From: Clostridia bacterium
GTDB taxonomy: Bacteria > Bacillota > Clostridia > Oscillospirales > CAG-272
Assembly (NCBI GenBank): GCA_017547655.1
Contig: JAFYPF010000001.1
Location: 72,643 to 136,642, forward strand
Direction: 5' to 3'
Length of the DNA stretch: 64,000 nucleotides
A program made the translations under genes and the position numbers. The stretch's first letter is position 1; each line of letters opens with the position of its first letter. Positions 30,426 to 46,508 of the stretch are shown in pieces. The notes beneath the pieces were generated by a model that did not search any database, was not told where the DNA came from, and was given only the letters and a program-made list of their open reading frames with translations.

Positions 30426-30454
30426 TTGACATTTGCAATTTATGGTGCTAAAAT
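30426..30454 (+). promoter_or_regulatory. Sigma-A promoter driving the T-box leader
   Basis: TTGACA (30426-30431), a 17-nt spacer, then TAAAAT (30449-30454) with TGn immediately upstream. Confidence 0.7.
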
Positions 30455-30481
30455 ATATAAAAATTTGAATATCACAAACAA

Positions 30482-30749
30482 CGACTATGATGAAGACGGT
30501 CGGAATGAGAAGCTTTTCAGAGAGTTGCCGGTGGGTGCGAGGCAATAGTAGATTTTTCCAATGACCTATCACTTCTGAGTCGGAGGACCGAAAGGTGTTG
30601 TCCGAGTAGACTCCTTCCGTATTGCTGCGTAAAAGCAAAGAGCTTGTTTGAGCTTGTTAAGTGACGGTGAAGAATTGATTTACCGTAATTTGAGTGGTAC
30701 CGCGGGTTTGATAACTCGTCTCAAAGAATTCTTTGGGGCGAGTTTTTTT
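30482..30749 (+). promoter_or_regulatory. T-box riboswitch leader (probable Ile, AUC specifier) with antiterminator/terminator
   Basis: - Stem I base cgact (30482-6) / agtcg (30578-82), and a GA/K-turn element (atgat).
- Helix gaag (30492-5) / cttc (30572-5).
- AGAGAG bulge at 30519-24 and a GGUGGGUGCGA distal loop.
- Specifier position AUC-A at 30568-71.
- T-box core aatttgagtggtaccgcg at 30687-30704.
- Terminator ctcgtctcaaag-aatt-ctttggggcgag plus T7, 30715-30749. Confidence 0.9.
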
Positions 30750-30809
30750 GTTTTATTCAAATCAGTAACCATTAAACAAAAACAGTTAGTGTTGAAAGGA
30801 GACAACAAA

Positions 30810-33113
30810 ATGGATTACAGTTTGAAAGACGTTGCAGGCAGAATCAAGGACCTGCGAGAAGCAAAAGGATACACACAAGAGGAGTTGGCAAAGCTCACAG
30901 GTGTATCGGCAGAAGATTATAAAGTTTTGGAAAAAGGCGAAACTGATTTTAGTTTTACTTTTATTTACAAGTGTGCAAAAGCTTGCGGTGTTGAAGTTGT
31001 AGATTTGCTTGAGGGAACAAGTACGACTTTGACTTCATTTGCTATCACAAGAAAAGGTGATGGTCTTAAAATTTTAAAACAGCATGGCGTTGAGTATAAC
31101 AACCTTGCGCCTAAATTTAAAGATAAACTTGCAGAGCCTTTCTTGGTTAAATTCCCATATCTTCCCGAGGAACAGAATGTTCCTATGAAGCTGAACTCTC
31201 ATAACGGTCAAGAGTTTGACGTTATTGTAAAGGGTTCGCTTAAGGTTCAGGTAGGTAATCACGTGGACGTGCTTAATGAAGGCGACTCGATTTTCTATAA
31301 CAGCCTTATTCCTCACGGTATGATTGCTGTCAGCGAGGGTGGCTGTGAATTCCATGCGGTTGTTCTTAATCCTCAAAATGGTCAGGTTAGTGAAGAATAT
31401 CCCGAAGCGCCCTATGTTGTTTCTAAAATTGTAGAAAAAGAAGAAAATACAACTACTGTTGCGGATAATTATGTAGAATCATTTTATGATGAAAACGGAG
31501 TATTCAGCGGAATCGAATTTAAAAATGATGATAAATTTAATTTTGCATTTGACTGCGTTGACGCTATTGCCGATAAGAACCCCGATAAACTTGCAATGCT
31601 GTGGGTTGGAAATGACAAATCCGATCGTAAATTTACTTTTAGCGATATGAAGAAATACTCGGCTAAAACAGCTAACTATTTTGAGTCACTCGGAATCAAA
31701 AAAGGTGATACGGTAATGCTCGTTCTTAAGCGTCATTATCAGTTCTGGTTCTGTATGCTTGCGCTTCATAAGCTTGGCGCAATTGCAATCCCTGCTACAA
31801 ATCAGCTTGTTGAACACGATTTTACATATAGATATAATGCTGCAAAGGTAAAGGCCATTGTTTGTACTGCTGACGGAGACGTATCTGCCGAAGCCGAAAA
31901 GGCGGCAGCTGAATTCCCCGATATGATTAAATTGTTGGTTGGCGGGAAAAAAGATGGTTGGAATGACTTTAACGTTGAAATGGAACGTTTTAGTACCCAC
32001 TACGCACGCACAGAAAATACACCTTGCGGCAACGATCCTATGCTTATGCTATTTACTTCGGGTACAACTGGTTATCCTCGTATTGCAACGCACTCATATA
32101 AATATGCATTAGGACATTATCCTACAGCAAAACATTGGCACAACGTAAATCCCAACGGTTTGCATTTCACAATTTCCGATACAGGTTGGGGTAAGGCGCT
32201 TTGGGGTAAGCTTTACGGTCAATGGCTCTGTGAGGCGGGTGTGTTCACATACGACTTTGACAGATTCCGTTCGGAAGATATACTTCCTATGTTTGCAAAA
32301 TACGGAATTACAACATTCTGTGCGCCTCCTACAATGTATCGTTTCTTTATTAAAGAAGATTTGTCAAAGTACGACCTTTCTTCTATTGAGTATGCAACGA
32401 CTGCCGGAGAGGCACTTAACCCCGAGGTGTTCAATCAGTTTAAGAAAGCAACGGGACTTACCATTATGGAAGGTTTTGGACAGACTGAAACCACACTTTC
32501 TATCGCAAACTTTGTTGGTTCTACTCCCAAAATCGGTTCTATGGGTAGACCGAGTCCTCTTTATGACGTTGTTGTTCTTGATCCCGACGGCAAGGAATGT
32601 AAAACGGGTGATACAGGCGAAATCTGTATTCGCGTAAAAGACGGCAAAGCACCTTGCGGACTCTTTATTGGTTATTATCTTGATGAAGAAAAGACAAAAG
32701 AAGTTTGGCATGACGGCTACTATCATACGGGCGATACTGCAACGATGGACGAAGAGGGCTACCTTTGGTACGTTGGTCGTATCGATGACGTTATCAAGTC
32801 TTCGGGTTATCGTATCGGTCCTTTCGAAATCGAAAGTGTAATTATGGAGCTTCCTTATGTTTTAGAGTGTGCAATTACACCTGTTCCCGATGAAGTTCGT
32901 GGACAGATTGTAAAAGCTACCATCGTTCTTGTAAAGGGAACTGTAGGTACTGATGAACTTAAAAAGGAAATTCAGGAATACGTTAAGACACATACAGCGC
33001 CCTACAAGTATCCCAGAATTGTTGAGTTTGTAGATGAACTTCCCAAGACTATCAGCGGTAAGGTAAGACGTGTAGAAATCCGTAAGAACGATATGGAAAA
33101 AATGAGCAAATAA
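30810..33113 (+). CDS. Fusion protein: XRE-family HTH + cupin sensor domain + medium/short-chain acyl-CoA synthetase (AMP-forming, ACSM/MACS-like)
   Basis: 767 aa counted from ATG 30810 (RBS aaaggagac).
- aa 1-65: HTH_3 (GYTQEELAKLTGVS).
- About aa 120-190: cupin (GDSIFYNSLIPHG).
- The rest is an adenylate-forming enzyme: LMLFTSGTTGYPR (A3), TAGEALN, GYYHTGD (A7), GRIDDVIKSSGYRIGP (A8), PKTISGKVRR (A10).
The upstream in-frame extension to 30648 lies inside the T-box RNA and is rejected. Confidence 0.88.
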   Translation: MDYSLKDVAGRIKDLREAKGYTQEELAKLTGVSAEDYKVLEKGETDFSFTFIYKCAKACGVEVVDLLEGTSTTLTSFAITRKGDGLKILKQHGVEYNNLAPKFKDKLAEPFLVKFPYLPEEQNVPMKLNSHNGQEFDVIVKGSLKVQVGNHVDVLNEGDSIFYNSLIPHGMIAVSEGGCEFHAVVLNPQNGQVSEEYPEAPYVVSKIVEKEENTTTVADNYVESFYDENGVFSGIEFKNDDKFNFAFDCVDAIADKNPDKLAMLWVGNDKSDRKFTFSDMKKYSAKTANYFESLGIKKGDTVMLVLKRHYQFWFCMLALHKLGAIAIPATNQLVEHDFTYRYNAAKVKAIVCTADGDVSAEAEKAAAEFPDMIKLLVGGKKDGWNDFNVEMERFSTHYARTENTPCGNDPMLMLFTSGTTGYPRIATHSYKYALGHYPTAKHWHNVNPNGLHFTISDTGWGKALWGKLYGQWLCEAGVFTYDFDRFRSEDILPMFAKYGITTFCAPPTMYRFFIKEDLSKYDLSSIEYATTAGEALNPEVFNQFKKATGLTIMEGFGQTETTLSIANFVGSTPKIGSMGRPSPLYDVVVLDPDGKECKTGDTGEICIRVKDGKAPCGLFIGYYLDEEKTKEVWHDGYYHTGDTATMDEEGYLWYVGRIDDVIKSSGYRIGPFEIESVIMELPYVLECAITPVPDEVRGQIVKATIVLVKGTVGTDELKKEIQEYVKTHTAPYKYPRIVEFVDELPKTISGKVRRVEIRKNDMEKMSK

Positions 33114-33463: not shown

Positions 33464-33540
33464 TGGTGGGCCATCAGGGACTCGAACCCCGGACCAACCG
33501 GTTATGAGCCGGTAGCTCTAACCAACTGAGCTAATGGCCC
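33464..33540 (-). tRNA. tRNA with CAU anticodon; elongator type, features favour tRNA-Ile2 (lysidine-modified) over tRNA-Met
   Basis: 77 nt with encoded CCA: GGGCCAT-TA-GCTC-AGTTGGTTA-GAGC-T-ACCGG-CTCATAA-CCGGT-TGGTC-CGGGG-TTCGAGT-CCCTG-ATGGCCC-A-CCA. The cloverleaf is perfect. It is not an initiator, because 1:72 is paired and the anticodon stem has no 3x GC. C4:G69 and C5:G68 resemble the TilS determinants of E. coli tRNA-Ile2. Confidence 0.93.
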
Positions 33541-44849: not shown

Positions 44850-44880
44850 TATTTTTTATTCGTGCAGATAATAGATATAT

Positions 44881-45190
44881 AAAGCGTTTGATGAAAAAAA
44901 TGCAGTCATATATACCGCACAGAGAAACGGTGGTTGGTGAGAACCGTATGGGTACTTTGATTGTTTTCCGTTTTCAGAGCTTTGCTTCGGTGATGAGCTG
45001 AAGAGGGGGCGCCCTTTACAGCGCATAGGGTAGGTGTTATTTGAAAACGTTTACCCTGTACGAGAGGCGCATTTTTGCGCAATGTGGGTGGCACCGCGGA
45101 GCATTTCCGTCCCATTTGTTTTAAGTTTTTTTGGCTTTTTTTTGAGCTGTTATTAAAACATACGTGGGAATAGGAAAGGCTTTTTTTGTT
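44881..45190 (+). promoter_or_regulatory. T-box riboswitch leader, Ser (UCC) specifier, upstream of serS
   Basis: - Base helix aaagc (44881-5) / gcttt (44979-83), with GA motif tgatg.
- Specifier UCC-G at 44967-70, directly before helix uuuuc.
- AGAGA at 44921-5, and a GGUGGUUGGUGAGA distal loop.
- T-box core aatgtgggtggcaccgcg at 45081-98.
- Antiterminator GGG-UGGCACC-GCGG...CCGU-CCC.
- Probable terminator 3' arm tggga..ggaaa (45165-77) plus a T-run. This arm is the least certain part. Confidence 0.85.
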
Positions 45191-45227: not shown

Positions 45228-46508
45228 ATGTTAGACATCAAATTTTTACGTGAAAATCCCGAAGTGGTAAAAGAAAATATCAAGAAAAAGTTTCAGGACG
45301 ACAAGCTTTCTCTTGTTGATGAAGTAATTGAGCTTGACGTTCAGAACAGAGAAGCAAAGGCAAAGAGAGACTCTATTCGTGCTATGAGAAATATCGTAAG
45401 CAAGGAGATTGGTAAGCTTATGGCTCAAAGTAAGAGAGAAGAGGCTGAAGCTGCAAAAAAGCAGGTTAGTGATGCGGCAAGTGAGCTTGCGGCTCTTGAA
45501 GAAAAGATTGAACAGCTTGAAAATGAAGTTAAGTCAAGAATGATGGTTATTCCCAATATTATTGACGAATCTGTTCCCGTAGGCAAGGACGACAGCGAAA
45601 ACGTTGAGGTTGAGCGTTTTGGTGAGCCTGTTGTTCCCTCGTTTGAAGTACCTTACCACGTAGATATTATGGAAAAGCTTAACGGTATTGACCTTGACAG
45701 CGCAAGAAGAACAAGCGGTAACGGTTTCTACTATCTCTGCGGAGACATCGCAAGACTTCATTCTGCAATTATTTCTTATGCTCGTGATTTTATGATAGAC
45801 AAGGGCTTTACTTATTATATTCCGCCCTTTATGATCAGAGGCGACGTTGTTACCGGTGTTATGAGCTTTTCTGAAATGGAAAATATGATGTATAAGATTG
45901 AGGGTGAAGACCTTTATCTTATCGGTACGAGTGAACACTCTATGGTTGGTAAGTTTATCAACACCATTACCGATGAGGCTGAATTGCCAAAGGCTATGAC
46001 GAGTTATTCTCCTTGCTTCAGAAAAGAGGTTGGCGCTCACGGCATTGAAGAAAGAGGAGTATACAGAATCCATCAGTTTGAAAAACAGGAAATGGTTGTT
46101 ATTTGTAAGCCCGAGGAGAGTATGGATTGGTTCCACAAGATGTACTCATATACCGTTGAATTTTTCAGAAGCCTTGATATTCCCGTAAGAACACTTGAGT
46201 GTTGTTCGGGCGACCTTGCTGACCTTAAGGTTAAGAGTATTGACGTTGAGGCTTGGTCTCCCCGTCAGCAGAAATATTTTGAAGTTGGAAGCTGTTCCAA
46301 CCTCGGTGATGCTCAAGCAAGACGTCTCGGTATCCGTGTTAGAAGAAAAGAAAAGGACAACTACTTCCCCCACACTCTTAACAATACCGTTGTTGCTCCC
46401 CCCAGAATGCTTATCGCATTCCTTGAAAACAATCTTCAGGAAGACGGTAGTATTCGAATTCCCGAGCCTCTTCGTATGTATATGGGCGGTAAAGAAATCA
46501 TCAAATAA
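45228..46508 (+). CDS. serS: Seryl-tRNA synthetase
   Basis: 426 aa. It has an N-terminal coiled-coil arm and class II motifs (YSPCFRKEVGAHG, GSCSN, RTLNNT-like HTLNNT). Confidence 0.95.
   Translation: MLDIKFLRENPEVVKENIKKKFQDDKLSLVDEVIELDVQNREAKAKRDSIRAMRNIVSKEIGKLMAQSKREEAEAAKKQVSDAASELAALEEKIEQLENEVKSRMMVIPNIIDESVPVGKDDSENVEVERFGEPVVPSFEVPYHVDIMEKLNGIDLDSARRTSGNGFYYLCGDIARLHSAIISYARDFMIDKGFTYYIPPFMIRGDVVTGVMSFSEMENMMYKIEGEDLYLIGTSEHSMVGKFINTITDEAELPKAMTSYSPCFRKEVGAHGIEERGVYRIHQFEKQEMVVICKPEESMDWFHKMYSYTVEFFRSLDIPVRTLECCSGDLADLKVKSIDVEAWSPRQQKYFEVGSCSNLGDAQARRLGIRVRRKEKDNYFPHTLNNTVVAPPRMLIAFLENNLQEDGSIRIPEPLRMYMGGKEIIK

What the first reader, a model, noticed from the sequence alone, without database searches (positions are those of the whole stretch)
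30482..30749. Textbook T-box leader with a probable isoleucine specifier, placed before an acyl-CoA synthetase gene rather than an aaRS, biosynthetic or transporter gene
All canonical T-box elements can be read directly:
- K-turn/GA motif;
- AGAGAG bulge and GGUG-type distal loop;
- the 18-nt T-box core;
- an antiterminator GAG-[UGGUACC]-GCGGG...CUCGU-CUC;
- a competing 12-bp terminator plus U7.

The serS leader in this window (44881-45190) gives UCC, as expected for Ser, when the codon is read immediately 5' of the conserved purine that precedes the helix above the K-turn. The same positional rule applied here gives AUC-A (30568-30571), which is Ile.

The variable base of the UGGN acceptor-pairing bulge is U here, pairing with an A73 discriminator as in tRNA-Ile. 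It is C in the serS leader, pairing with G73 as in tRNA-Ser. The two leaders therefore behave consistently.

T-boxes normally control aminoacyl-tRNA synthetases, amino-acid biosynthesis or uptake. An Ile-sensing T-box on a short/medium-chain acyl-CoA synthetase suggests the enzyme feeds isoleucine supply. One route would be activation of 2-methylbutyrate for reductive carboxylation to the Ile keto-acid, a pathway classically described in rumen and gut anaerobes that require branched-chain volatile fatty acids.
Basis: partly seen in the sequence, partly recalled or inferred. Interest (0 to 1): 0.7.

Follow-up and report, generated by a model that had tools for sequence, protein, structure and literature searches.

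The report
Isoleucine T-box controlling a 2-methylbutyrate-type CoA ligase
A real isoleucine-sensing T-box RNA switch sits in front of a gene for a regulator-like domain fused to a branched short-chain acid-CoA ligase, and related gut bacteria place such genes next to the enzymes that turn these acids into amino acids, which points to the long-unidentified genes for making isoleucine from 2-methylbutyrate.

Summary
Window 30478-30726 matches the Rfam T-box model end to end (90.4 bits, E 1.7e-20; cut-off 93). A 14-bp terminator plus U7 follows. The model places AUC-A (30568-30571) in the specifier slot. AUC and the UGGU bulge are invariant in 74 of 74 orthologous leaders, and 18 helix pairs show compensatory changes.

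The downstream gene (30810-33113, 767 aa) is more than a plain synthetase. It fuses an XRE-type HTH, a cupin and an AMP-forming acyl-CoA synthetase. The enzyme domain is 56% identical to MacsMa (PDB 3ETC), whose preferred substrate is 2-methylbutyrate.

More distant relatives have two paralogues. One lies behind an Ile T-box. The other lies behind a Val T-box and heads an operon with a four-subunit 2-oxoacid:ferredoxin oxidoreductase, a branched-chain aminotransferase and, in one locus, glutamate dehydrogenase. Leu and Phe T-boxes in the same genomic islands precede other acid-CoA ligases.

Most likely, uncharged tRNA-Ile switches on 2-methylbutyrate activation for isoleucine synthesis by reductive carboxylation. 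The partner enzymes were not seen in this organism, and nothing was tested experimentally. No published precedent was found in the searchable literature. The RNA is an ordinary T-box; the target gene and the regulon logic appear new.

The parts
30426..30454 (+). Sigma-70-type promoter: -35 TTGACA (30426-30431), 17-nt spacer, TG-extended -10 TAAAAT (30449-30454).
   Evidence: 11 of 12 consensus matches, TG present. A TTGACA/TATAAT pair is also seen in the consensus of the orthologous leaders.
30461..30475 (+). Conserved 5' leader element AAAUUUGAAUAUCAC, probably the very 5' end of the transcript. It is complementary to 30754-30762.
   Evidence: one copy per locus, always at the leader start; complementarity, with G-U-preserving changes on the 3' strand.
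30478..30726 (+). T-box leader (RF00230), full-length match.
   Evidence: 90.4 bits, E 1.7e-20, model positions 1-219; covariation in 74 leaders.
30484..30580 (+). Stem I, comprising the K-turn (30487-30493 / 30575-30580), the specifier loop, the AG bulge CAGAGAG (30518-30524) and the distal loop GGUGGGUGCGA (30530-30540).
30568..30571 (+). Specifier codon AUC (Ile) plus the following purine A.
   Evidence: covariance-model alignment. ATC in 74 of 74 leaders; next base A in 63, C in 8, G in 3; the bases 5' of ATC vary.
30583..30629 (+). Stem II (30583-30616) and the Stem IIA/B region (30618-30629).
30664..30686 (+). Stem III.
   Evidence: (6 of 7 pairs with compensatory changes).
30691..30723 (+). 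Antiterminator with the T-box bulge. UGGU (30695-30698) would pair with the ACCA 3' end of uncharged tRNA-Ile.
   Evidence: GAGUGGUACC is invariant in 74 of 74 leaders.
30713..30749 (+). Competing intrinsic terminator: a 14-bp stem (30714-30727 with 30730-30743) followed by U7 (30743-30749).
   Evidence: -19.5 to -20.7 kcal/mol, z = -3.2; 98.4% of cells paired across 74 leaders.
30754..30762 (+). Post-terminator element UAUUCAAAU, complementary to the 5' leader element. It is present only in read-through RNA.
30810..33113 (+). Regulated gene, 767 aa, with RBS AAAGGAGA at 30795-30802. It encodes an HTH-cupin-acyl-CoA synthetase fusion.
   Evidence: Homologues are 761-776 aa with the same four Pfam domains.
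30843..31004 (+). XRE-type helix-turn-helix domain (aa 12-65).
   Evidence: HTH_3, 43.7 bits against a cut-off of 23.
31194..31361 (+). Cupin_2 domain (aa 129-184).
   Evidence: 33.4 bits against a cut-off of 27.2; 1Y9Q, an HTH_3-cupin regulator, E 2e-5.
31566..33062 (+). AMP-forming acyl-CoA synthetase: AMP-binding (aa 253-610) and AMP-binding_C (aa 673-751). It is of the Macs type.

Best explanation
This is a transcriptional T-box riboswitch specific for tRNA-Ile(GAU). It controls a monocistronic gene for an HTH-cupin-acyl-CoA synthetase fusion protein.

How it most likely works:
1. When isoleucine is scarce, uncharged tRNA-Ile pairs its anticodon with AUC in the Stem I specifier loop.
2. 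Its free ACCA end pairs with the UGGU bulge. This stabilises the antiterminator over the 14-bp terminator, so RNA polymerase reads into the gene.
3. The Macs-type enzyme domain then activates an exogenous branched short-chain acid, most likely 2-methylbutyrate, to its CoA thioester.
4. A VOR-type 2-oxoacid:ferredoxin oxidoreductase reductively carboxylates that thioester to 2-oxo-3-methylvalerate.
5. A branched-chain aminotransferase converts the oxoacid to isoleucine.

This is the route Allison described in rumen bacteria.

Shown here:
- The T-box anatomy, the specifier and their conservation.
- The domain architecture of the protein.
- The similarity of the enzyme domain to the 2-methylbutyrate-preferring MacsMa.
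- In relatives, the pairing of Ile and Val T-boxes with paralogues of this gene, and their operon linkage to oxidoreductase, aminotransferase and glutamate dehydrogenase genes.

Inferred:
- tRNA-dependent read-through.
- The real substrate.
- The existence of the downstream enzymes in this organism.
- The role of the HTH-cupin module.
For: RNA:
- Full-length RF00230 match, E 1.7e-20.
- AUC-A lies in the model's specifier slot.
- AUC and UGGU are invariant in 74 of 74 orthologous leaders while flanking bases vary.
- 91.8% of cells are paired and 18 pairs have compensatory changes; 0 of 500 shuffles reach this, and slid-partner controls give 35-50% paired.
- The terminator is 98.4% paired, and its changes are confined to U-A to U-G.

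Enzyme:
- Pfam finds AMP-binding and AMP-binding_C.
- The best NCBIfam model is the methylbutyryl-CoA synthetase MbcS.
- The best PDB match is 3ETC/MacsMa, at 674 bits against 393 for the next hit, with 56% identity over 522 aligned residues.
- Trp259, Gly459, Tyr460, Arg490, Lys519, Tyr525 and Tyr527 are conserved, as is the Gly that replaces the acetate-gating Trp of Acs.
- MacsMa prefers 2-methylbutyrate (PMC10455477).

Context in relatives:
- L083, L084 and L085 show an Ile T-box before paralogue A. A Val T-box (GUA) precedes paralogue B, followed by a CbiA-like gene, a ferredoxin, POR_N, TPP_enzyme_C and POR-gamma, with Aminotran_4 in L084 and L085 and glutamate dehydrogenase in L085 only.
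- L081 has AUC and GUC leaders on its two paralogues.
- L086 and L087 have AUC, with an aminotransferase downstream in L086. L089 (Solobacterium) has GUC. In L088 the fusion genes lie divergent from a VOR-type operon.
- Tally of T-boxes on this gene family: Ile 80, Val 5, any other amino acid 0.
- In the same islands, Leu T-boxes precede a LeuA-like gene plus a TIM-barrel-ACS fusion, and Phe T-boxes precede a PaaK-like ligase plus an ACT protein.

Pathway background: 2-methylbutyrate to Ile, isovalerate to Leu and phenylacetate to Phe are documented in rumen organisms (PMC7356843; PMC2812497).
Against: - No oxidoreductase or aminotransferase gene lies in the 64-kb window. None lies within 5 kb of the gene in the 80 closest loci either. 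The pathway partners are therefore not shown for this organism.
- Sequence similarity cannot separate 2-methylbutyrate from isobutyrate specificity. The window protein is 55-63% identical to the Ile-linked paralogues and 54-61% to the Val-linked ones, and the tree is unresolved. The substrate assignment rests on the T-box specifier and on MacsMa.
- The window copy scores 2.6 bits below Rfam's cut-off, and its specifier loop lacks the AGUA/GAA S-turn consensus.
- In S. aureus, the MbcS precedent uses the same product, 2-methylbutyryl-CoA, to prime branched-chain fatty acids. A dual use cannot be excluded.
- No tRNA-Ile gene was available to confirm A73.
- There is no experimental evidence of any kind.
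Confidence: 0.75

Rival explanations
1. The switch and the enzyme are as described, but the 2-methylbutyryl-CoA serves mainly as a primer for anteiso branched-chain fatty acids, as with MbcS in S. aureus. In that case the Ile T-box would act to spare isoleucine when it is scarce, not to make it.
For: - The best NCBIfam model is MbcS.
- MbcS activates 2-methylbutyrate and isobutyrate for FabH priming (PMC10026030).
- The window gene has no amino-acid-synthesis neighbours.
- MaoC-type dehydratase genes are neighbours in 11 loci.
Against: - The score against the MbcS model is 444 bits, against a cut-off of 850.
- In relatives, the paralogue under a Val T-box is co-operonic with an oxidoreductase, an aminotransferase and, in one locus, glutamate dehydrogenase. 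Lipid priming needs none of these.
- T-boxes respond to tRNA charging, which new amino acid raises directly.
- The two uses are not mutually exclusive.
Confidence: 0.12
2. The enzyme activates propionate. Propionyl-CoA is reductively carboxylated to 2-oxobutyrate, which enters the ordinary ilv pathway to isoleucine.
For: - This route to Ile is known in some anaerobes (my own knowledge, not checked here).
- MacsMa adenylates propionate (PMC10455477).
- An Ile T-box would fit this route equally well.
Against: - MacsMa does not complete CoA-ester formation with propionate, only with 2-methylbutyrate.
- The parallel Val-T-box paralogues cannot be explained by propionate. They fit a one-acid-per-amino-acid scheme: isobutyrate for Val and 2-methylbutyrate for Ile.
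Confidence: 0.05
3. The protein is primarily a transcription factor. On this reading the HTH-cupin module is the business end, the synthetase domain acts as a ligand sensor, and the T-box simply sets the regulator's level.
For: - The HTH_3 and Cupin_2 domains score above Pfam's thresholds.
- The HTH-cupin architecture matches a solved regulator, 1Y9Q.
- The module is retained in every lineage down to 41% overall identity.
- In L088, which has no T-box, the genes lie divergent from the VOR-type operon.
Against: - All catalytic and CoA-binding residues studied in MacsMa are kept except K461R, which the paper found to have little effect on CoA binding or catalysis.
- The enzyme domain is the best-conserved part of the protein.
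- No conserved operator palindrome was found.
- This rival is compatible with the main explanation as an added function.
Confidence: 0.08
4. The element is a decayed or misread T-box. Either it is not regulatory, or its specifier is a different codon of the same loop, such as CUA, UAU, UCA or ACC.
For: - The score lies just under Rfam's gathering cut-off, and the S-turn consensus is missing.
Against: - E = 1.7e-20 over the full model.
- Four of the five orthologous leaders scanned score 95.7-100 bits, above the cut-off.
- Covariation is strong.
- ATC is invariant, whereas the overlapping frames vary: CCT, CTT, CCC and TCT precede it, and A, C or G follows it.
- More distant leaders again carry AUC in the same slot.
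Confidence: 0.02

Closest known systems
Ile-specific T-box leaders (RF00230), as found before ileS and ilv-leu operons of Firmicutes
   Same: - Full Stem I, II, IIA/B and III architecture with an antiterminator and terminator.
- An AUC specifier, which TBDB reports as the preferred Ile specifier (PMC7778990).
- A UGGU bulge.
- Transcriptional attenuation.
   Different: - The regulated gene is an acyl-CoA synthetase fusion, not a tRNA synthetase, a classical biosynthetic gene or a transporter.
- The specifier loop lacks the AGUA/GAA S-turn consensus.
- A conserved 5' element pairs with sequence just beyond the terminator.
MacsMa, the medium-chain acyl-CoA synthetase of Methanosarcina acetivorans (PDB 3ETC)
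   Same: - 56% identity over the whole enzyme domain.
- Gly in place of the Acs acetate-gating Trp.
- The alternative pocket residue Trp259 and the CoA-site residues are conserved.
   Different: - MacsMa has no HTH-cupin extension and no T-box, since it is archaeal.
- The substrate of the window enzyme has not been measured.
MbcS, the methylbutyryl-CoA synthetase of Staphylococcus aureus (NCBIfam NF047394)
   Same: - It is the best-scoring NCBIfam model.
- It activates 2-methylbutyrate and isobutyrate taken from the environment.
   Different: - The score of 444 bits is far below the equivalog cut-off of 850.
- MbcS feeds fatty-acid priming.
- The papers read here report neither a T-box nor an N-terminal fusion for MbcS.
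Reductive carboxylation of branched-chain and aromatic volatile acids to amino acids in rumen microbes (Allison and co-workers)
   Same: The acid-to-amino-acid pairs match the T-box-to-ligase pairs found here:
- 2-methylbutyrate to Ile.
- Isobutyrate to Val.
- Isovalerate to Leu.
- Phenylacetate to Phe.

Sources: PMC7356843, PMC2812497.
   Different: The classical work is physiological. In the literature I could search, no genes for the activation step were assigned and no tRNA-sensing control was described.
BirA, the biotin protein ligase and repressor (comparison from my own knowledge, not tested here)
   Same: An adenylate-forming enzyme carrying an N-terminal DNA-binding domain, so that one protein could couple catalysis to transcription.
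   Different: - The enzyme fold and the HTH type differ.
- A cupin is inserted between the two modules.
- DNA binding by the window protein is unproven.

Membership tests
T-box leader (Rfam RF00230) | Covariance-model match at or above the curated gathering score (93 bits). | tested here: inconclusive
   - The window copy scores 90.4 bits, E 1.7e-20, over the full model 1-219. It is therefore missed by the default scan.
- Orthologous leaders score 91.9, 95.7, 95.9, 96 and 100 bits.
- The shortfall comes from 4 deleted positions in the specifier loop.
T-box leader (Rfam RF00230) | Stem I with a K-turn, a specifier loop, an AG bulge and a distal loop. | tested here: met
   alignment, with coordinates. 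Stem I helices are supported by compensatory changes across 74 leaders.
T-box leader (Rfam RF00230) | A specifier codon on the 3' side of the specifier loop, followed by a purine, that matches one amino acid. | tested here: met
   AUC-A at 30568-30571 in the model's specifier slot. ATC is present in 74 of 74 leaders.
T-box leader (Rfam RF00230) | The AGUA/GAA S-turn consensus in the specifier loop. This feature is frequent but not universal, so it is not defining. | tested here: not met
   The model's aaAGUA positions are deleted, and the 3' side reads GACC where the consensus has GAA. The same holds in the Ile and Val leaders of distant relatives. The Leu and Phe T-boxes of the same islands do keep AGUA...GAA.
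T-box leader (Rfam RF00230) | A conserved T-box sequence forming an antiterminator with a UGGN bulge. | tested here: met
   GAGUGGUACCGCGGG is present, and GAGUGGUACC is invariant in 74 of 74 leaders.
T-box leader (Rfam RF00230) | A mutually exclusive intrinsic terminator that shares the 3' half of the antiterminator. | tested here: met
   14-bp stem plus U7; 98.4% of cells paired across the leaders.
T-box leader (Rfam RF00230) | Read-through induced by uncharged cognate tRNA. | not testable with these tools
   This needs in vitro transcription or in vivo reporters. The tRNA-Ile A73 discriminator is taken from general knowledge, because no tRNA-Ile gene was in the window or the loci.
Macs-type (MacsMa-like) AMP-forming acyl-CoA synthetase | AMP-binding plus AMP-binding_C domains, with full-length similarity to MacsMa. 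| tested here: met
   E 1e-201; 56% identity.
Macs-type (MacsMa-like) AMP-forming acyl-CoA synthetase | Gly at the position of the Acs gating Trp, together with the alternative pocket residue Trp259. | tested here: met
   FGQTET is conserved, and W465 aligns with MacsMa Trp259. The roles of these residues come from PMC10455477.
Macs-type (MacsMa-like) AMP-forming acyl-CoA synthetase | A preference for 2-methylbutyrate. | not testable with these tools
   Enzyme kinetics are required.
MbcS (NCBIfam NF047394, equivalog) | A whole-protein score at or above the curated cut-off (850 bits). | tested here: not met
   444.1 bits. It is related to MbcS but is not filed as MbcS.
XRE-HTH plus cupin transcription regulators | HTH_3 and Cupin_2 domains, in that order. 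| tested here: met
   One search matches 1Y9Q across both domains (E 2e-5).
XRE-HTH plus cupin transcription regulators | Sequence-specific DNA binding modulated by a ligand. | not testable with these tools
   No conserved operator was found. EMSA or ChIP would be needed.

The most novel reading that the evidence does not exclude
The gene is one arm of an undescribed regulon in gut and rumen Firmicutes that runs on tRNA charging and converts volatile acids into amino acids.

- Ile, Val, Leu and Phe T-boxes each switch on a dedicated acid-CoA ligase.
- The Val arm also carries the shared oxidoreductase and aminotransferase.

In addition, the HTH-cupin-synthetase fusion may be a BirA-like bifunctional enzyme and transcription factor. 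Its cupin would sense the matching acid or amino acid. The evidence for that is that cupin similarity tracks the T-box specificity. Control would then be two-tiered: tRNA charging through the RNA, and ligand availability through the protein.

A conserved helix between the 5' end of the leader and the sequence just after the terminator could further mark or stabilise read-through transcripts only.
Probability: 0.3. Interest if true: 0.85.

Novelty: new variant of a known kind. Interest (0 to 1): 0.72.

Why it matters
**A candidate gene for a classical pathway.** Rumen and hindgut bacteria have been known since the 1960s to need branched-chain volatile acids and to build amino acids from them. 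The literature I could search assigns no genes to the activation step and describes no control of the pathway. A T-box specifier is an unusually direct functional label, because it says which amino acid the cell is short of when it turns the gene on.

**A testable set of pairings.** The labels read as follows:
- Ile on a 2-methylbutyrate-type ligase.
- Val on a paralogue joined to an oxidoreductase and an aminotransferase.
- Leu and Phe on other acid-CoA ligases.

Together they give a gene-level hypothesis for the whole set of reductive carboxylations. The family is very common in ruminant gut genomes, so the result bears on isoacid feed supplementation and on predicting auxotrophies from metagenomes.

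**Relevance for riboswitch biology.** The known T-box target range would extend beyond tRNA synthetases, classical biosynthesis and transport to an acyl-CoA synthetase. The HTH-cupin-synthetase architecture is uncharacterised.

Tried and rejected
1. The default Rfam scan of the whole window found no T-box. This was explained by the 93-bit cut-off, not by absence.
2. The neighbours of the gene in the window were scanned for pathway partners, and none are related: SpoIVB, VanY, AraC, an AEC-type transporter, BspA-LRR, PBP2, MreC, MreB, Maf, serS and others.
3. A conserved operator for the protein's own HTH was sought.
   - The AAATTTGAATATCAC element occurs once per locus and nowhere else.
   - The only palindrome at the promoter is imperfect, and its upstream half is not conserved.
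   - The operator idea is not supported, and an RNA-level role fits the element better.
4. Assigning the window protein to the Ile or the Val paralogue group by sequence did not work. The identities differ by only 1-2 points, and the NJ tree has unresolved deep nodes. Only the cupin region leans towards the Ile paralogues.
5. A tRNA-Ile(GAU) gene was sought to read the discriminator base. None is present in the window or in 60 loci.
6. The literature was searched for precedent. The combinations tried were:
   - T-box with acyl-CoA synthetase;
   - T-box with phenylacetate-CoA ligase;
   - T-box with ferredoxin oxidoreductase.

   Nothing was found. Two key surveys, Vitreschak 2008 and Gutierrez-Preciado 2009, are not held, so the absence of precedent is not proven.
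7. Catabolic use of the oxidoreductase operon was considered and rejected, by reasoning rather than by a test. An AMP-forming ligase does not conserve energy in the acid-forming direction, and induction by uncharged tRNA fits synthesis rather than breakdown.
Full report
**1. Is the T-box there?**

A default Rfam scan of the whole window at gathering thresholds returned only a tRNA. This is a threshold effect, because Rfam 15 sets the T-box cut-off at 93 bits.

Searched with permissive filters, window 30478-30726 (+) matches RF00230 over all 219 model positions, at 90.4 bits and E = 1.7e-20.

- The two halves of the K-turn, at 30487-30493 and 30575-30580.
- The CAGAGAG bulge, at 30518-30524.
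- The GGUGGGUGCGA distal loop, at 30530-30540.
- Stem II (30583-30616), the IIA/B region (30618-30629) and Stem III (30664-30686).
- The antiterminator (30691-30723), with its UGGU bulge at 30695-30698.

A 14-bp terminator (30714-30727 paired with 30730-30743) and a run of seven U overlap the 3' half of the antiterminator. A TG-extended sigma-70-type promoter lies at 30426-30454.

There is one departure from the consensus. The AGUA/GAA S-turn of the specifier loop is absent: four model positions are deleted and the 3' side reads GACC. This accounts for the score falling just short of the cut-off.

**2. Which codon is the specifier?**

The covariance-model alignment puts 'GACC u AUC A' directly before the CUUC strand that closes the helix above the K-turn. 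In the serS leader the same slot holds UCC-G and the bulge reads UGGC. The gene downstream of that leader is a seryl-tRNA synthetase.

I then fetched 80 loci from species-level genomes that encode the same protein at 89-94% identity. All are MAGs from ruminant gut samples, labelled Acutalibacteraceae, Oscillospiraceae, Eubacteriales or Clostridia. For the 73 loci with enough upstream sequence, plus the window:
- Every leader has the T-box core.
- ATC is invariant in 74 of 74. The base after it is A in 63, C in 8 and G in 3, and the bases before it vary among CCT, CTT, CCC and TCT. No overlapping reading frame is conserved.
- UGGU is invariant.

**3. Is the structure under selection?**

I projected the Rfam structure onto the 74-leader alignment. 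91.8% of cells form standard pairs. 18 of 47 pairs show changes on both sides, and 0 of 500 column shuffles reach that number. Sliding the 3' partners by one to three columns drops pairing to 35-50%. Stem III alone has six covarying pairs.

The terminator is 98.4% paired. Its 5' arm is shared with the antiterminator and never varies. Its 3' arm changes only between A and G opposite U, which is what two mutually exclusive structures would impose.

**4. What does the T-box control?**

The ORF starts at the ATG at 30810, eight bases after AAAGGAGA, and ends at 33113. It stands alone. A tRNA gene on the opposite strand follows it, and the flanking genes are unrelated.

The 767-aa product has four Pfam domains:

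| Domain | Residues |
|---|---|
| HTH_3 | 12-65 |
| Cupin_2 | 129-184 |
| AMP-binding | 253-610 |
| AMP-binding_C | 673-751 |

The N-terminal 220 residues resemble an HTH_3-cupin regulator of known structure, 1Y9Q (E 2e-5).

The enzyme domain has one outstanding relative among solved structures, 3ETC, at E 1e-201 and 674 bits. The next hit, a 4-hydroxybutyrate-CoA ligase, scores 393 bits.

- 3ETC is MacsMa of Methanosarcina acetivorans. Its preferred substrate is 2-methylbutyrate, the only acid it carries through to the CoA thioester (PMC10455477).
- Identity is 56% over 522 aligned residues.
- The Gly that replaces the acetate-gating Trp of acetyl-CoA synthetase is conserved. So are the substitute pocket residue Trp259 and six of the seven CoA-site residues studied in MacsMa. 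The exception is K461R, at a position the paper found to have little effect on CoA binding or catalysis.
- Among NCBI's family models the best is MbcS, the S. aureus methylbutyryl-CoA synthetase. The score is only 444 bits against a cut-off of 850, so the protein is related to MbcS but is not an MbcS.

**5. Context in the closest relatives**

Gene neighbourhoods vary, but one arrangement recurs in about 14-18 of the 80 loci:
1. A T-box, then a LeuA-like gene and a TIM-barrel (AP_endonuc_2)-AMP-binding fusion.
2. The Ile T-box and the HTH-cupin-synthetase gene.
3. Often LysR, a sodium:solute symporter and a MaoC dehydratase.
4. A third T-box, followed by a PaaK-like phenylacetate-CoA ligase and an ACT-pair protein.

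The Rfam alignments and a tabulation over all loci give the specifiers:
- CUC, or CUG in one case, which is Leu, for the first T-box.
- UUC, which is Phe, for the third.

So three T-boxes of three specificities precede three different acid-CoA ligases.

**6. Context in distant relatives: the decisive evidence**

A search of 50%-identity cluster representatives showed that the full fusion architecture also exists at 54% and 41% identity to the window protein. I searched with those two proteins and fetched contigs for nine members.

In L083, L084 and L085, two fusion paralogues lie in tandem, each behind its own T-box.
- Paralogue A's leader carries AUC (Ile).
- Paralogue B's leader carries GUA (Val).
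- Paralogue B is followed on the same strand, with gaps of 0-50 bases, by:
  - a CbiA-like P-loop protein;
  - a 68-aa 4Fe-4S ferredoxin;
  - POR_N/PFOR_II, TPP_enzyme_C and POR-gamma subunits, which together make a four-subunit VOR-type 2-oxoacid:ferredoxin oxidoreductase;
  - in L084 and L085, a class IV (branched-chain) aminotransferase;
  - in L085, a glutamate dehydrogenase.

That is the complete path from acid to acyl-CoA to 2-oxoacid to amino acid, with regeneration of the amino donor.

The other distant loci:

| Locus | Finding |
|---|---|
| L081 | AUC and GUC leaders on its two paralogues |
| L086, L087 (Clostridiales MAGs) | AUC before the first of two tandem fusion genes; an aminotransferase gene downstream in L086 |
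| L089 (Solobacterium) | GUC |
| L088 (Lachnospiraceae) | No T-box; the two fusion genes lie divergent from a ferredoxin/POR_N/TPP_enzyme_C operon |
| L090 | No T-box and no informative neighbours |

In all, T-boxes on this gene family read Ile 80 times, Val 5 times and nothing else.

The Ile and Val leaders share a near-identical antiterminator, and both lack the S-turn consensus. This points to duplication of leader plus gene followed by a specifier switch.

**7. Mechanism**

The best-supported account runs as follows.
1. When tRNA-Ile is poorly charged, the uncharged tRNA binds Stem I through the anticodon-AUC pairing and through its elbow on the distal platform.
2. Its free ACCA end pairs with UGGU. 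The antiterminator wins over the terminator, and the fusion protein is made.
3. The enzyme domain activates exogenous 2-methylbutyrate.
4. A VOR-type enzyme carboxylates the thioester reductively, and an aminotransferase yields isoleucine.

The T-box steps follow the established mechanism (PMC7583486; PMC7778990). The metabolic steps follow the rumen pathway summarised in PMC7356843 and PMC2812497.

Direction matters here. An AMP-forming ligase and induction by uncharged tRNA both argue for synthesis rather than breakdown. That argument is my inference.

**8. Weak points**

- The oxidoreductase and the aminotransferase were not seen in the window or near the gene in its 80 closest relatives.
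- The 2-methylbutyrate assignment rests on MacsMa and on the specifier. Sequence identity does not separate the Ile-linked from the Val-linked paralogues.
- Only the cupin region leans towards the Ile paralogues. Within the same genomes, identity to the window protein is 53 against 46, 46 against 41, 56 against 44 and 49 against 46 percent.
- The 2-methylbutyryl-CoA could also prime anteiso fatty acids, as in S. aureus.
- The function of the HTH-cupin module is unknown. It is retained in every lineage sampled, but no conserved operator was found.

**9. Novelty**

The RNA is an ordinary member of the T-box family. What appears new is the target.

None of my searches returned a paper that describes this. 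The combinations tried were:
- T-box with acyl-CoA synthetase;
- T-box with phenylacetate-CoA ligase;
- T-box with ferredoxin oxidoreductase and branched-chain.

The T-box surveys I could read do not list such targets either: Wels 2008, TBDB 2020, and Sun 2013 with its supplements.

Two major surveys are not held, and TBDB itself could not be queried. An unremarked database entry therefore cannot be excluded. I rate the finding as a new variant of a known kind, with interest 0.72.

Noticed in passing
window 30461-30471 and 30754-30762: The first bases of the leader (AAAUUUGAAUA) are complementary to UAUUCAAAU, which lies just after the terminator U-tract and so exists only in read-through RNA. 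Both elements are nearly invariant in 70 of 74 leaders. Almost all changes on the 3' strand are A-to-G opposite U, which keeps a G-U pair, as expected for an RNA helix rather than a DNA palindrome. The duplex energy alone is not significant (22 of 300 shuffles do as well). This may be a 5'-3' clamp that stabilises or marks read-through transcripts.
   Followed up: partly
window 30470-30475 and 30567-30572: The hexamer UAUCAC, which contains AUC-A, occurs both in the conserved 5' element and in the specifier loop. This may be coincidence.
   Followed up: no
window 33464-33540 (-): A tRNA with anticodon CAU, called Met by ARAGORN, lies convergent to the T-box-regulated gene. It has C4:G69 and C5:G68 and a CUCAUAA anticodon loop. 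From memory, these are the determinants for lysidine synthase, so it may be tRNA-Ile2 rather than tRNA-Met. The adjacency is not conserved in related loci.
   Followed up: partly
window 44878-45117 (+), gene 45228-46508: The serS T-box (UCC specifier, UGGC bulge) scores 82.8 bits, which is also below Rfam 15's 93-bit cut-off. Default Rfam annotation would therefore miss both T-boxes in this window.
   Followed up: yes
L030:426-660, L056:423-666, L083:11662-11912 and about 14 other loci: Leu T-boxes (CUC, once CUG) precede an operon of a divergent LeuA-like synthase (about 462 aa) and a fusion of a xylose-isomerase-like TIM barrel with an acyl-CoA synthetase (about 820 aa). In L054 the TIM-barrel-synthetase gene has its own CUC T-box. 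This is a candidate isovalerate arm of the same logic.
   Followed up: partly
L030:7418-7669, L056:10572-10823, also L005, L026, L058, L061, L063: Phe T-boxes (UUC) precede a PaaK-like phenylacetate-CoA ligase (527 bits against a cut-off of 646) and a 143-aa ACT-pair protein. In L057 a closely similar UUC leader precedes pheA and aro genes. This is a candidate phenylacetate-to-Phe arm.
   Followed up: partly
L040:7370-8779 and about 10 other loci: A 470-aa protein with an ACT domain and a metallo-beta-lactamase fold starts at a GTG about 25-35 bases after the fusion gene's stop codon, with its own RBS. It is probably co-transcribed under the Ile T-box. Its function is unknown.
   Followed up: partly
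window 31035-31469 (aa 76-220) compared with L081 and L083-L085: In the linker-cupin region, the window protein is consistently more similar to the Ile-T-box paralogue than to the Val-T-box paralogue of the same genome. The enzyme domain shows no such bias. The cupin may be the specificity-bearing sensor.
   Followed up: partly
L088:1-7268: In a Lachnospiraceae MAG, two tandem fusion genes have no T-box and lie divergent from a ferredoxin/POR_N/TPP_enzyme_C operon. This hints that control there may rest on the proteins' own HTH-cupin modules.
   Followed up: partly
window 350-25498 (+): About 25 consecutive same-strand ORFs, many overlapping by a few bases, form one long gene cluster. It was not annotated here.
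   Followed up: no
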